Shown: positions 14,235 to 28,790 of the stretch, piece after piece | Layout of the letters: every line of letters begins with the position of its first letter | Position numbering within the stretch: the first letter of the stretch is position 1 | NCBI GenBank assembly: GCA_041649295.1 | Contig: JBAZNI010000002.1 | Location: 141,356-205,355, forward strand | Origin: Candidatus Pacearchaeota archaeon | GTDB lineage: Archaea; Nanobdellota; Nanobdellia; Pacearchaeales; GW2011-AR1 | Direction: 5' to 3' | DNA: 64,000 nt | Made by a program: the position numbers and the translations under genes | The notes under the pieces: generated by a model | Seen by the model: only the letters and a program-made list of their open reading frames with translations | What the model was told of the DNA's origin: nothing | Database searches by the model: none

Positions 14235-14610
14235 GCATTTTATCTACTTTTCCTTCATCCCAAATATTACCATGGAGCGTTATCTCTCCTTCACTACTTA
14301 TAGAACCATCTGCTCTCACTTGCAACATTCTAGTAGTCCATGGAAATATTTCTGAAGCAGAATAATAATTATCAATACCAACAGGTTTACTAATTGGATG
14401 GTAAGGTGTAGCATAACCGATAATTACCTTTCTAGTAAAATCACATTTTCCAAGATAATTTATTTGAATTTGGCTTACTCCTTCTTCAGTTTCAAGAATA
14501 ATTGGTTTGTCATATCCTAAGCCAGTTAGGTCTTCCCAATTTCTCACTCGTTTAGGTTTTTCTCTAGCTACTAACATTTTCTTTTTCTTTAGATTTAGAT
14601 TCTTCAGCAA
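14224..14610 (-). CDS. hypothetical protein between rps3ae and ndk
   Basis: 128-aa ORF co-oriented with the flanking genes and overlapping both ends (probable start at the internal Met near 14577). No motif recognised. Confidence 0.4.
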   Translation of the reverse strand: MLKNLNLKKKKMLVAREKPKRVRNWEDLTGLGYDKPIILETEEGVSQIQINYLGKCDFTRKVIIGYATPYHPISKPVGIDNYYSASEIFPWTTRMLQVRADGSISSEGEITLHGNIWDEGKVDKMLGK

Positions 14611-15193
14611 CTTCTGTTTTTTTAGCTCTTTCTAATTCATAAAGTTCATGCTCTTTTAAATCTTCAATTCCAAGATGTTTTATTTCACAAATATTCAAAG
14701 GATATAATTTTCTAAGTTTTCCATTTAAATCCTTTTGAATCTGGTTGTTTATAACATCTTTTACAAGGGATTCAAATTCTTTTTCTTTAATGTAATTCCC
14801 TAAAAATTCTTTAGCTGATTTTTTCAAACTGGTTAAAACAGCTCTTGAAACTGGTTTTTTGGTTGTTATAAGGTATTTTATTCTTATCCTATGATCAGAA
14901 CATGGAGCTAAAAATGAATCTTCTGCATAATCAGTCCTTTTTCTCATTAGTCTTCTTATGTAGAATTCCTGCAAGGTTATTTTTTTCGGATTAGCTGAAG
15001 CTGTTTTTTCATCAGCAGTTATTTTTAAACTTAATTCAAGGGCCTTCCCTCTTAATATACTTGATAAATCAAATTTTATATATTTTCCATTTAATTCTTC
15101 AAGAGTTCCACTGTATACTTCCAATTCTTTTTTTATTATAGGTATTTCAACATCAAAAAATTTCTTTTTAATTAATTTTTTTGTTTTTGCCAT
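14564..15193 (-). CDS. rps3ae: 30S ribosomal protein eS1 (S3Ae)
   Basis: N-terminus AKTKKLIKKKFFDVEIPIIKKELEVYSGTLEELNGKYIKFDLS is typical of S3Ae; 209 aa. Confidence 0.9.
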   Translation of the reverse strand: MAKTKKLIKKKFFDVEIPIIKKELEVYSGTLEELNGKYIKFDLSSILRGKALELSLKITADEKTASANPKKITLQEFYIRRLMRKRTDYAEDSFLAPCSDHRIRIKYLITTKKPVSRAVLTSLKKSAKEFLGNYIKEKEFESLVKDVINNQIQKDLNGKLRKLYPLNICEIKHLGIEDLKEHELYELERAKKTEVAEESKSKEKENVSS

Positions 15194-15240
15194 TTGAAGA
15201 CAACCTACGGTTTTCTCTCACACACTTTCCCTTTATTTAG
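15194..15240 (+). repeat. tRNA-intron-like element (third copy, outside any tRNA)
   Basis: Plus strand TTGAAGACAACCTACGGTTTTCTCTCACACACTTTCCCTTTATTTAG. It shares AACCTACGGTTTTC with the tRNA-Arg intron and CTCTCACACAC with the tRNA-Leu intron, and abuts the rps3ae start codon on the opposite strand. Confidence 0.6.
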
Positions 15241-15257
15241 ATTTTTGTTTTCCATTT

Positions 15258-15566
15258 TTATTCCATAATTACTTTGCTTGCTCTTTTTCCTTTTTTAGCC
15301 TGATGTGATTTTTTGCATTCCTGGCAGGTGTAAACAAAAACATGTTTCTTTGTATTTTTTGTTTTTCTTTTCCATTTGTTAATTGCAGGCTTGCTGCCTC
15401 TGCCTTTGTTTCCTAATCCGGGAATTGCCCCTCTTAGTTTCATTCTTGTTAGCGAACCCCTTGTAAGAGTTCCCCTCTTAGTTCCTGTTGAGGTTAATTT
15501 TATCTTATGCTGAGTTTTCTTATTGCAAAAAGGGCAAAACCTGTTTGTTGTCTTTGGCTTTTTCAT
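15258..15566 (-). CDS. rpl44e: 50S ribosomal protein eL42 (L44e)
   Basis: Zinc-ribbon pairs CPFCNKKT ... CQECKK in a very basic 102-aa protein. Confidence 0.85.
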   Translation of the reverse strand: MKKPKTTNRFCPFCNKKTQHKIKLTSTGTKRGTLTRGSLTRMKLRGAIPGLGNKGRGSKPAINKWKRKTKNTKKHVFVYTCQECKKSHQAKKGKRASKVIME

Positions 15567-23627: not shown

Positions 23628-23774
23628 TGCGAGGGACAGGATTCGAACCTGCGTAGGCACTAAGCCAGCAGATTTCTCAAGTTTCTCTTACTCCTATAAA
23701 GGAAGGTGTGTGAGAGGAAACCTTGGTTTCCTTCATCTTGAGTCTGCTTCGTTTGACCACTCCGACACCCTCGC
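23628..23774 (-). tRNA. tRNA-Leu (anticodon CAA) with 63-nt intron after position 37
   Basis: Acceptor GCGAGGG/CCCTCGC, anticodon stem GCAGA/TCTGC, loop CTCAAG|intron|A, long variable arm TGGCTTAGTGCCTAC, T-arm GCAGG-TTCGAAT-CCTGT. Intron at 23674..23736. Confidence 0.85.
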
Positions 23775-28500: not shown

Positions 28501-28634
28501 GCTCCCGTAGCTCAGCCTGGATAGAGCGATAGCCTTCTAGTGATGTGGGAAAACCTACGGTTTTCCTAACACTACCTTTCCCTTAAGGTAGAGAAGAAAG
28601 CTATAGGTCGCAGGTTCGAATCCTGTCGGGAGCA
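28501..28634 (+). tRNA. tRNA-Arg (anticodon TCT) with 59-nt intron after position 37
   Basis: Acceptor GCTCCCG/CGGGAGC, D-arm GCTC-AGCCTGGATA-GAGC, anticodon stem ATAGC/GCTAT, loop CTTCTA|intron 28540..28598|A, T-arm GCAGG-TTCGAAT-CCTGT. Confidence 0.85.
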
Positions 28635-28790
28635 TTAACGGATTCGAAGTGCTCATGAAGCAAAGCTTCCTGGCAACTTATATTCTGTGAATCTAAGTAA
28701 TCCTGTCGGGAGCATTAACGGATTCGAAGTGCTCATGAAGCAAAGCTTCCTGGCAACTTATATTCTGCGAATCTAAGTAATCTTGCAGGA
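28619..28790 (+). repeat. two tandem 80-nt units (tRNA-Arg 3' end plus 64-nt module) and a degenerate third start
   Basis: Units 28619..28698 and 28699..28778 differ at one position (CTGTGAATC versus CTGCGAATC). Each begins with AATCCTGTCGGGAGCA; a third AATCTTGCAGGA start at 28779 is degenerate. Confidence 0.85.

What the first reader, a model, noticed from the sequence alone, without database searches (positions are those of the whole stretch)
15194..15240. tRNA-intron-like sequence outside any tRNA, antisense to the rps3ae leader and abutting its AUG
The plus strand at 15194..15240 reads TTGAAGACAACCTACGGTTTTCTCTCACACACTTTCCCTTTATTTAG. It shares a 14-nt exact run (AACCTACGGTTTTC) and TTTCCCTT with the tRNA-Arg intron. 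It shares an 11-nt exact run (CTCTCACACAC) and collinear flanks with the sense tRNA-Leu intron (ATGAAGGAAACCAAGGTTTCCTCTCACACACCTTCCTTTATAGG).

rps3ae is on the minus strand and its start codon is at 15191..15193. Its 5' leader is therefore the reverse complement of this element, and the excised intron RNAs would be complementary to the leader right up to the AUG.

Two readings are possible:
- the introns derive from a mobile element that also landed here;
- released tRNA introns act as antisense regulators of a ribosomal-protein mRNA.
Basis: partly seen in the sequence, partly recalled or inferred. Interest (0 to 1): 0.6.

Follow-up and report, generated by a model that had tools for sequence, protein, structure and literature searches.

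The report
Dispersed mini-element inserted at rps3ae start
The intron-like sequence in front of the ribosomal-protein gene rps3ae is one copy of a small, apparently undescribed repeat that is scattered through many tiny (DPANN) archaea, sitting in tRNA introns, beside tRNA genes and exactly at the start codons of housekeeping genes, so it bears on how archaeal tRNA introns arise rather than showing a regulatory RNA.

Summary
The strand, the coordinates, the 14-nt match to the tRNA-Arg intron, the 11-nt match to the tRNA-Leu intron and the abutting rps3ae start codon were all confirmed, and the match is far beyond chance.

The sequence is a copy of a ~38-nt module (TGAAG, a 7-bp hairpin, CTCTCACACAC, CYTTCC). 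I found this module in 74 unique copies from about 90 loci, all from DPANN archaea.

- **V1/V3 subfamilies:** these lie in the sense orientation, at the 5' end of tRNA introns or directly after tRNAs.
- **V2 subfamily (the window's spacer copy):** this is always antisense to its neighbour. In 21 of 55 unique copies it abuts a start codon (S3Ae, S10, S27a, L24e, L11, SRP54, aRF1 and others).

Many copies carry perfect flanking direct repeats. Relatives have empty sites: rpl44e stop, 1 nt, then the rps3ae ATG. These copies are therefore insertions.

In the window, an upstream ATG sits where the rps3ae start used to be. It opens a 16-codon ORF that ends in the hairpin loop, 11 nt before the real ATG. 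This ORF probably keeps translation coupled across the insert.

The antisense-regulator reading is physically possible (predicted duplex about -47 kcal/mol) but is not needed, and it could not be tested because no RNA data exist. The insertion mechanism, and the reason the module is nearly invariant across DPANN, remain unexplained.

The parts
15194..15233 (+). Module A, subfamily V2 (W-TGAAGAC AACC-TAC-GGTTTTC TCTCACACAC TTTCCC). The hairpin is 15199-15205 / 15209-15215 with a conserved C.U mismatch. On the mRNA strand it reads GGGAAAGTGTGTGAGAGAAAACCGTAGGTTGTCTTCAA, followed directly by the rps3ae ATG.
   Evidence: Sequence. Covariance model R1 scores it 67.2 bits, E 1e-15. It is identical or nearly identical to V2 copies from other genomes.
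15232..15240 (+). Short distal box TTTATTTAG (mRNA sense CTAAATAAA). It is shared with the short-form copy L034/L076 and is related to the AAATTAAATAA box of long-form copies.
   Evidence: This is a by-eye comparison of copies.
15241..15257 (-). Probable decayed duplicate of the rps3ae start region (AAATGGAAAACAAAAAT versus AAATGGCAAAAACAAAAA). It lies 2 nt after the rpl44e stop codon, which is where rps3ae starts at empty sites.
   Evidence: empty sites: TAA, 1 nt, ATG; the similarity alone is only marginal, since 2 of 59 other gene starts score as high.
15205..15255 (-). Bridging upstream ORF MENKNLNKGKVCERKP*. Its ATG is at 15255-15253 and its TAG stop at 15207-15205, in the loop of the module A hairpin, 11 nt before the rps3ae ATG.
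   Evidence: Translation of this ORF is inferred, not shown.
14564..15193 (-). rps3ae (ribosomal protein S3Ae/eS1). Its start codon at 15191-15193 abuts the element.
15258..15566 (-). rpl44e, the upstream gene of the operon. It has a TATA-like box about 30 nt before its ATG, as expected for a leaderless gene.
23698..23736 (-). Module A, subfamily V1 (perfect hairpin GGAAACC/GGTTTCC). It starts 1 nt after the 5' splice site of the 63-nt intron of tRNA-Leu(CAA), 23628-23774.
   Evidence: Model R1 scores it 56.7 bits.
28545..28584 (+). Module A, subfamily V3 (TGTGGGAAAACC-TAC-GGTTTTCC TAACACTACCTTTCC) in the 59-nt intron of tRNA-Arg(TCT), 28501-28634.
   Evidence: Model R1 matches only the hairpin, 18.6 bits.

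Best explanation
The 64-nt spacer between rpl44e and rps3ae is an insertion of a short-form copy of a dispersed miniature element family found across DPANN archaea.

**The family.** Its conserved core is module A (~38 nt): a sharp TGAAG end, a 7-bp hairpin, a CA-rich single strand, then CYTTCC. The same module forms the 5' part of the tRNA-Leu(CAA) and tRNA-Arg(TCT) introns in this window, so the three sequences resemble each other by common descent.

**The insertion (shown by comparison).** The ancestral arrangement was rpl44e stop, 1-2 nt, then the rps3ae ATG. The element went in exactly at the start codon, in the orientation that all start-codon copies share.

**How the insert is tolerated (inferred).** This organism's genes are leaderless or translationally coupled. 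The displaced original ATG now opens a short ORF that runs through the element and stops in the hairpin loop 11 nt before the restored rps3ae ATG. Ribosomes arriving from rpl44e can then re-initiate on rps3ae.

**What remains unknown.** How the element moves is not known. No transposase was identified. The flanking duplications vary in length, which is unlike a classical transposase.
For: **Family and distribution**
- 37 loci from reference genomes, all DPANN, and 53 metagenome loci hold the module. After removing duplicates there are 74 unique copies.
- The two hits in viral contigs lack the TGAAG end and look like chance matches.

**Context by subfamily**
- V1/V3 lie in the sense orientation in tRNA introns, 0-4 nt after the 5' splice site, or directly after tRNA 3' ends.
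- V2 is antisense to its neighbour. In 21 of 55 unique V2 copies it abuts the start codon of an ORF of 40 aa or more, against 0 of 15 V1 copies.
- The genes concerned are S3Ae, S10, S27a, L24e, L11, SRP54, aRF1, Sec61beta, a KH protein, and SMC- and RFC-like proteins read from their N-termini.

**Insertion signatures**
- Direct repeats abut the TGAAG end: 23/23 (L047, module A alone inserted), 23/23, 22/22, 21/21, 18/18 and 33/35.

**Empty sites**
- In L097, L098 and L100, rpl44e stop and rps3ae ATG are 1 nt apart.
- L097 is empty where L013 and L006, which have the same S3Ae N-terminus, carry the long-form element.

**Lineage-specific introns**
- Leu(CAA), Cys(GCA), Asn(GTT), Lys(TTT) and Tyr(GTA) have element-bearing introns of 63-124 nt in some genomes and no intron in others.

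**Leaderless or coupled translation and the bridging ORF**
- TATA-like boxes peak 30-24 nt before ATGs (19 of 49 genes), and Shine-Dalgarno-like motifs are rare (8 of 49).
- 18 of 24 unique start-codon copies have a bridging upstream ORF, against 7.9 expected from shuffles.
- That ORF's ATG lies 1-2 nt after an upstream stop codon, or 26-34 nt after a TATA-like box, in at least 10 of 18 cases.
- In L095 and L096 the upstream ORF ends in a TGATG overlap or in TAA directly followed by ATG.
Against: - **Conservation.** Module A is almost invariant in more than 50 unique copies from genomes whose S3Ae proteins are only about 50% identical. The S10 leaders L029 and L049 share 50 identical nt while the adjoining coding sequence has many synonymous changes. 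This looks like purifying selection on a function, not only selfish spread, unless the same site was hit independently.
- **No mechanism.** No transposase, integrase or reverse transcriptase was linked to the element.
- **Unusual duplications.** They range from 3-4 nt (ATG) to more than 30 nt.
- **Unexplained junction rule.** The TGAAG end is joined exactly at start codons, at tRNA positions 14, 37/38 and 54, and at tRNA ends.
- **Weak duplication in the window.** Its similarity is only marginally better than chance.
- **Non-independent copies.** The copies are homologous, so the upstream-ORF statistic overstates independence.
- **Missing data.** There are no RNA data.
Confidence: 0.7

Rival explanations
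1. Sense/antisense regulatory pair. RNAs carrying module A (V1/V3), released from tRNA introns and tRNA 3' trailers and possibly stable circles, base-pair with leaders that carry the complementary V2 copy. The pairing reaches up to the AUG of rps3ae and other translation genes. This would couple tRNA transcription to ribosomal-protein synthesis.
For: - Both partners exist in this window.
- Predicted duplexes are -47.1 (Arg) and -46.7 (Leu) kcal/mol, against -17 +/- 3 for shuffled introns. The net gain after unfolding both partners is about -20 to -25 kcal/mol.
- Both classes are strongly conserved across DPANN.
- Leader copies end exactly at start codons of ribosomal-protein and other housekeeping genes.
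- Copies within one genome share genome-specific second modules, as expected if they co-evolve with a common partner.
- From general knowledge, excised archaeal introns are circularised and can be stable.
Against: - The complementarity is fully explained by shared descent of inserted copies.
- V1 and V2 differ at fixed positions, which gives three mismatches and two wobble pairs. That is not expected if pairing were selected.
- V2 also sits beside tRNA T-loop duplications and inside a ~330-nt repeat, where there is no leader to regulate.
- The older leaders L095 and L096 have lost the GUGUGUGAGAG half.
- No expression data exist.
Confidence: 0.1
2. The mRNA-sense copy is a selected cis-acting leader: a protein- or ribosome-binding hairpin next to the AUG that controls or enables translation of rps3ae and other core genes. 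It would have been recruited from, or have given rise to, the dispersed family. On this view the start-codon copies are kept for function rather than merely tolerated.
For: - The junction with the ATG is exact in 21 or more unique copies.
- The hairpin-proximal 22 nt (AAGAAACCGTAGGTGTCTTTT) is kept between L095 and L096 while the rest of the spacer is rearranged. The core AAACCGTAGGT is also kept in the window.
- The A.G mismatch in the hairpin is conserved in all V2 copies.
- In the second hairpin, wobble pairs fall on the mRNA strand in start-codon copies (4 versus 1) and on the tRNA strand in intron copies (2 versus 0).
- Ribosomal-protein genes appear over-represented among the start-codon targets.
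Against: - Close relatives do without it, as the empty sites L097, L098 and L100 show.
- The same rpl44e|rps3ae junction holds an unrelated palindromic insert in L094.
- The wobble-pair counts are too small to be significant.
- No binding partner is known, and no Rfam family matches.
Confidence: 0.15
3. Chance similarity of low-complexity, AT-rich sequence.
For: The genome is 31% G+C, and short matches are common.
Against: - Two independent introns both hit the same spot, collinearly.
- The 30-nt pattern has 0 matches in 100 shuffles.
- The covariance model scores 67 and 57 bits.
- About 90 further loci hold the same module.
Confidence: 0.01

Closest known systems
Transposed tRNA-intron families of Thermoproteales (Fujishima et al. 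2010, Mol Biol Evol 27:2233, as summarised in PMC4033280)
   Same: Similar intron sequences occur in tRNA genes of different isoacceptors, which implies that intron sequence is copied between genes and that introns are gained lineage by lineage.
   Different: - The clade here is DPANN.
- The shared module also lies outside tRNA genes: at start codons, after tRNA 3' ends and beside duplicated tRNA T-loop-to-3'-end segments.
- Flanking direct repeats and empty sites are visible.
- The module is nearly invariant across class-level distances.
Bacterial miniature insertion elements that affect neighbouring genes (MITEs such as Correia/NEMIS, RUP, REP/REPIN). This comparison rests on general knowledge.
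   Same: They are small, non-coding, hairpin-forming, multi-copy and dispersed. They are often found just upstream of genes and co-transcribed with them.
   Different: - There are no terminal inverted repeats.
- The flanking duplications vary from 3-4 to more than 30 nt instead of having a fixed length.
- One end is sharp and the other is variable.
- The joining positions are strict (start codon, tRNA loops).
- No partner transposase is known.
- The host is archaeal.
Integrative elements that target tRNA genes and duplicate the tRNA 3' part from the T-loop or anticodon loop (tyrosine-integrase att sites). Related evidence: Sugahara et al. 2012, PMC3293823, on tRNA disruption by a mobile element in Caldiarchaeum.
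   Same: One class of copies (L002, L014, L016, L017, L030, L036 and others) has an intact tRNA followed by the insert and a second copy of the tRNA from the T-loop to the 3' end, like attL/attR.
   Different: - The inserts are only about 85-110 bp and encode no integrase.
- Different tRNAs (Ser, Phe, Arg, Leu) are each duplicated next to the same module.
- The window's copy is at a protein-gene start, not at a tRNA.
Trans-acting antisense RNA control (for example CopA/CopT-type hairpin-hairpin pairs). This comparison rests on general knowledge.
   Same: Two transcripts would carry complementary stem-loops, and one covers the translation start of the other.
   Different: No evidence shows that either RNA accumulates or that the two interact. 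The complementarity is a by-product of insertion in opposite orientations.

Membership tests
Archaeal BHB tRNA intron | Lies inside a tRNA gene, canonically between positions 37 and 38, and is flanked by exon halves that restore a cloverleaf | tested here: not met
   No tRNA overlaps 15194-15257 by ARAGORN (with or without introns) or by the Rfam tRNA model. The nearest tRNA is tRNA-Val, 421 nt away. The Leu and Arg copies do meet this feature.
Archaeal BHB tRNA intron | A bulge-helix-bulge motif at both borders that the splicing endonuclease can cut | not tested
   No BHB search was made around the spacer copy on either strand. For the two introns, only the exon-intron helices were checked by eye (CTCAAG/CTTGAG for Leu; CTTCT/AGAAG for Arg).
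MITE (miniature inverted-repeat transposable element) | Terminal inverted repeats at both ends | tested here: not met
   The ends are W-TGAAG... and ...(T)TTCATT or variable. The only inverted repeats are the internal hairpins.
MITE (miniature inverted-repeat transposable element) | Target-site duplication of fixed length | tested here: not met
   Flanking repeats range from 3-4 nt (ATG/AATG at start codons) to 11, 15, 18, 21-25, 30 and 33 or more nt.
MITE (miniature inverted-repeat transposable element) | Small, non-coding, multi-copy and dispersed | tested here: met
   74 unique copies of 38-140 nt in about 90 loci, with up to 10 hits in one assembly (CAYXNP).
IS200/IS605-derived PATE / REPIN | Insertion 3' of one fixed tetra- or pentanucleotide, subterminal hairpins, and a cognate Y1 transposase (TnpA/RAYT) | tested here: inconclusive
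   Subterminal hairpins are present. The left flank is CATT only in start-codon copies; elsewhere it is YGAA, AAAA, CTCA, CCAA and others. No transposase was searched for.
tRNA-targeting integrative element (att duplication) | An intact tRNA plus a direct repeat of its 3' part, starting in the T-loop or anticodon loop and flanking the insert | tested here: met
   Met for the T-loop copies in other genomes. It does not apply to the window's copy, which flanks a protein-gene start.
tRNA-targeting integrative element (att duplication) | Element-encoded integrase | tested here: not met
   The inserts are 85-110 bp and have no room for a gene. An integrase acting in trans was not tested.
Trans antisense sRNA-mRNA pair | Extended complementarity that covers the translation start | tested here: met
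   Predicted duplex of -47 kcal/mol against -17 +/- 3 for shuffles. Pairing reaches 2-3 nt before the AUG.
Trans antisense sRNA-mRNA pair | Both RNAs accumulate and expression responds to the pairing | not testable with these tools
   Only one public run holds the sequence, and it is DNA. Mapping it gave one contig and no further information.
Any Rfam family | A match at or near the family's gathering score | tested here: not met
   Only tRNA hits reached the gathering score in the window. Permissive scans of two long-form copies and of the CAYXNP repeat gave nothing below E 0.2 apart from the tRNA that hosts one of the copies.

The most novel reading that the evidence does not exclude
The family is an archaeal 'introner': a tiny mobile element that creates tRNA introns in DPANN archaea. 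On this reading it is joined to its targets at landmarks that only make sense at the RNA level. These are tRNA loop positions 14, 37/38 and 54, tRNA 5' and 3' ends, and the first base of leaderless or coupled start codons. That would imply an RNA-end-directed mechanism (ligase, template switching, or integrase acting on stem-loops). In addition, its opposite-orientation copies in tRNA introns and in mRNA leaders would form a genome-wide sense/antisense network linking tRNA transcription to translation of ribosomal-protein genes.
Probability: 0.12. Interest if true: 0.9.

Novelty: new variant of a known kind. Interest (0 to 1): 0.7.

Why it matters
How archaeal tRNA introns arrive is still open. 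A 2026 census of Asgard tRNA introns found no general route (bioRxiv 10.64898/2026.10.13.758758). Here one sequence module is seen in all of these states:
- inside tRNA introns of many isoacceptors that are intronless elsewhere;
- freshly inserted, with perfect flanking repeats;
- at filled sites that have matching empty sites in relatives.

This gives a concrete candidate vehicle for intron gain, and a data set in which the mechanism can be worked out.

The start-codon copies also show how a genome with leaderless, tightly coupled genes can tolerate an insert in front of essential genes, namely through a bridging short ORF. The near-invariance of 38 nt across very divergent DPANN lineages asks for a conserved partner (enzyme, RNA or protein) that is not yet known.

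Tried and rejected
- **Own-genome census.** I substituted scans of genome, metagenome and viral collections with DNA patterns.
- **Close relatives.** There are none. The best foreign S3Ae is 53-55% identical, and the only identical contig comes from the same sample.
- **RNA evidence.** No RNA run holds the sequence. Mapping the single DNA run showed one contig and no empty allele.
- **Known RNA families.** No Rfam match. A C/D-box or K-turn reading (UGAAGA as a C box, CUGA/CCGA as a D box) was considered and dropped, because the partner box lies in a hairpin loop and there is no terminal stem.
- **Resemblance to 16S rRNA helix 45 (AACCUGCGG).** This was judged to be a chance 9-mer, from memory of the rRNA sequence and not tested.
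- **Module as the core promoter of a leaderless rps3ae.** Rejected, because there is no AT-rich box 30-24 nt before the ATG.
- **Junction as a transcription start site.** This fits the tRNA-His case (L089) and several genes, but not the operon-internal rps3ae.
- **Upstream ORF as a conserved micro-protein.** Rejected, because the copies use different reading frames and the conservation is at the nucleotide level.
- **Viral origin.** Only two chance-like hits in viral contigs.
- **Strand of selection from wobble pairs.** The direction is suggestive but the counts are too small.
- **16-nt duplication in the window.** Only marginal support.

Full report
**1. Observation**

The quoted sequence is at 15194-15240 on the plus strand. 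rps3ae (14564-15193, minus strand, Pfam Ribosomal_S3Ae) starts at 15191-15193. rpl44e (15258-15566, minus strand) ends 64 nt upstream of that start.

ARAGORN with introns allowed, and the Rfam tRNA model, find two intron-containing tRNAs:
- tRNA-Leu(CAA) at 23628-23774 (minus strand), with a 63-nt intron.
- tRNA-Arg(TCT) at 28501-28634 (plus strand), with a 59-nt intron. ARAGORN mislabels this one SeC.

Several tests show the match is not chance:
- With blastn-short, the best non-self hit of each intron anywhere in the 64-kb window is this spacer, on the same strand and collinear.
- A 30-nt degenerate pattern written to fit all three copies never occurs in 100 shuffles of the window.
- A covariance model finds exactly these three places in the window: 67 bits, 57 bits, and a hairpin-only 18.6 bits.

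The introns fold into two hairpins. The spacer copy keeps only the first hairpin, with one mismatch.

**2. The family**

No close relative of this organism is in the databases. The best foreign S3Ae is 53-55% identical. I therefore scanned public collections with DNA patterns.

- The reference-genome collection gave 37 loci, all from DPANN archaea labelled Pacearchaeota, Woesearchaeota, Nanoarchaeota or Iainarchaeum.
- A metagenome scan for the spacer-type variant gave 53 more loci.
- The two viral-contig hits look like chance.
- After removing duplicates there are 74 unique copies.

All copies share module A: a sharp border W-TGAAG, a 7-bp hairpin (AACC, 2-3 nt, GGTT core), CTCTCACACAC, and CYTTCC. 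Many copies carry a second hairpin (GCGATTTC / GAAATCGC) in which all eight pairs show compensatory changes. No Rfam family matches. I found no paper that describes the element.

**3. Two subfamilies with different contexts**

*V1 (perfect hairpin GGAAACC/GGTTTCC) and V3 (the Arg-intron type).* These lie in the sense orientation:
- inside tRNA introns, starting 0-4 nt after the 5' splice site (Tyr, Gly, Cys, Lys, Asn, Leu, Arg and others);
- directly after a tRNA 3' end;
- once after position 14 of a tRNA, with an 18-nt duplication.

*V2 (GACAACC/GGTTTTC with a fixed mismatch; the window's spacer copy).* This is always antisense to its neighbour:
- In 21 of 55 unique copies the complement reads ...GGTTGTCTTCAA followed by the ATG of a real ORF. 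None of the 15 V1 copies does this.
- The genes are S3Ae (four lineages), S10, S27a, L24e, L11, SRP54, aRF1, Sec61beta, a KH protein, and SMC- and RFC-like proteins identified by their N-termini.
- About a dozen other V2 copies are followed by a second copy of a tRNA's T-loop-to-3'-end segment. The intact tRNA lies 35-70 nt upstream.
- One V2 copy abuts G-1 of a tRNA-His gene.
- About a dozen V2 copies sit in the middle of a ~330-nt repeat of one Woesearchaeote.

**4. The copies are insertions**

- Direct repeats that start exactly at the TGAAG border are perfect or nearly perfect in many copies: 23/23 around module A alone in L047, then 23/23, 22/22, 21/21, 18/18, 24/25 and 33/35.
- For rps3ae itself, three relatives (L097, L098, L100) have rpl44e stop, one nucleotide, then ATG.
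- L097 is empty where L013 and L006, which have the same S3Ae N-terminus, hold the long-form element.
- Two other relatives (L095, L096) hold an older, diverged copy that keeps only the hairpin-proximal half.
- L094 holds an unrelated palindromic insert at the same junction.
- Among the tRNAs in the fetched loci, Leu(CAA), Cys(GCA), Asn(GTT), Lys(TTT) and Tyr(GTA) have element-bearing introns (63-124 nt) in some genomes and no intron in others.

**5. How the rps3ae copy is probably tolerated**

Genes in this window have a TATA-like box 30-24 nt before the ATG (19 of 49) and rarely have a Shine-Dalgarno-like motif (8 of 49). Translation therefore starts on leaderless mRNAs or by coupling within operons.

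In the window, an ATG lies 2 nt after the rpl44e stop, which is where rps3ae begins at empty sites. It opens MENKNLNKGKVCERKP*, whose TAG lies in the loop of the module A hairpin, 11 nt before the rps3ae ATG.

Such bridging ORFs are frequent across the family:
- They occur in 18 of 24 unique start-codon copies, against 7.9 expected from shuffles. The copies are related, so this is not a clean probability.
- They occur in different reading frames.
- Their ATG lies either 1-2 nt after an upstream stop or 26-34 nt after a TATA-like box in at least 10 of 18 cases.
- In L095 the bridging ORF ends in TGATG. In L096 it starts in ATGA and ends TAA directly followed by ATG.

I infer that the displaced original start codon now drives a short ORF through the insert, and that ribosomes re-initiate at the restored start. 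None of this is shown experimentally. The 16-nt duplication I see in the window is only marginally better than chance.

**6. The antisense idea**

The predicted intron-leader duplexes are strong: -47 kcal/mol against -17 +/- 3 for shuffled introns. Both classes are conserved. Copies within one genome tend to share the same second module, which could reflect co-evolution with a common partner.

Against this:
- The complementarity follows from insertion in opposite orientations.
- V1 and V2 differ at fixed positions.
- V2 occurs where there is no leader.
- Old leader copies have lost half of the pairing region.

With no RNA data I give this reading about 10%.

A related rival holds that the mRNA-sense hairpin next to the AUG is a selected cis element. 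It draws some support from in-situ conservation and from a weak strand bias of wobble pairs. I give it about 15%.

**7. What is unexplained**

- Why module A is nearly invariant across lineages whose proteins are about 50% identical.
- What enzyme moves it.
- Why the TGAAG end is always joined at a start codon, at tRNA positions 14, 37/38 or 54, or at a tRNA end, while the other end and the length of the duplication vary.

The T-loop and anticodon-loop junctions recall the att sites of tyrosine integrases. The RNA-like landmarks suggest a step directed by RNA ends. The data do not decide between these.

**8. Comparison and verdict**

The closest described phenomena are:
- the transposed tRNA-intron families of Thermoproteales (Fujishima 2010, via PMC4033280);
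- mobile-element-driven tRNA disruption (PMC3293823);
- bacterial miniature elements.

The element fails the MITE definition, since it has no terminal inverted repeats and no fixed-length duplication, and no partner enzyme is known. Earlier notes of this scan describe other hairpin families shared by tRNA introns and leaders in DPANN genomes. They are unchecked leads that point the same way.

I rate this a new variant of a known kind. Interest is 0.7, because it offers a concrete, testable vehicle for archaeal intron gain and an unusual way of tolerating inserts at start codons.

Noticed in passing
window 28635-28698 and 913-976; L096 1420-1450: The 64-nt module repeated after tRNA-Arg and tRNA-Gln in this window contains the hairpin GAAGC-AAA-GCTTC. 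The same 13-mer, GAAGCAAAGCTTC, lies in the rps3ae leader of relative L096. Different hairpin modules therefore seem to be exchanged between tRNA flanks and leaders.
   Followed up: no
L094 1428-1500: A Pacearchaeote relative has a different, 73-nt palindromic insert (ACCTTTAAA...AAAACCTTAAGGTTTT...TTTAAAGGT) at the same rpl44e|rps3ae junction. That junction looks like a permissive or hot site.
   Followed up: no
L028 1400-1760 (also L003, L007, L022, L027, L041, L043, L052, L062, L065, L074, L079, L085, L087): A ~330-nt repeat unit of a Woesearchaeote (assembly CAYXNP; 10 pattern hits, five or more of them in this unit) has the complement of module A in its middle. It also has a G+C-rich, probably structured arm and imperfect inverted ends (GACATATGT...). 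Three V1-like copies (L024, L026, L038) share a flank that is the reverse complement of the flank of one unit (L003). No Rfam match.
   Followed up: partly
L089 6934-6973: The complement of module A ends one base before G-1 of a tRNA-His gene (..GTCTTCAT|GGCGGTTGTAGTTTAACGG). This is the same exact abutment seen at start codons. It would fit leaderless tRNA transcription as known from Nanoarchaeum.
   Followed up: no
L047 1695-1734: Module A alone (38 nt) is flanked by a perfect 23-nt direct repeat (tttaattttgtgctgatggctca). This is the smallest and apparently freshest insertion seen.
   Followed up: partly
window, all ORFs of 120 aa or more: Promoter architecture: a TATA-like box sits 30-24 nt before the ATG in 19 of 49 genes, and Shine-Dalgarno-like motifs occur in only 8 of 49. 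The organism is essentially leaderless.
   Followed up: yes
window 28501-28634: ARAGORN labels this intron-containing tRNA SeC(TCA). The anticodon loop read with a 37/38 intron gives Arg(TCT).
   Followed up: partly
all V2 copies: The hairpin loop TAC or TAT, which gives an in-frame TAG on the mRNA strand, is commoner in start-codon copies (about 17 of 24) than in other V2 copies (about 11 of 30). This is a by-eye count and may be a lineage effect.
   Followed up: no
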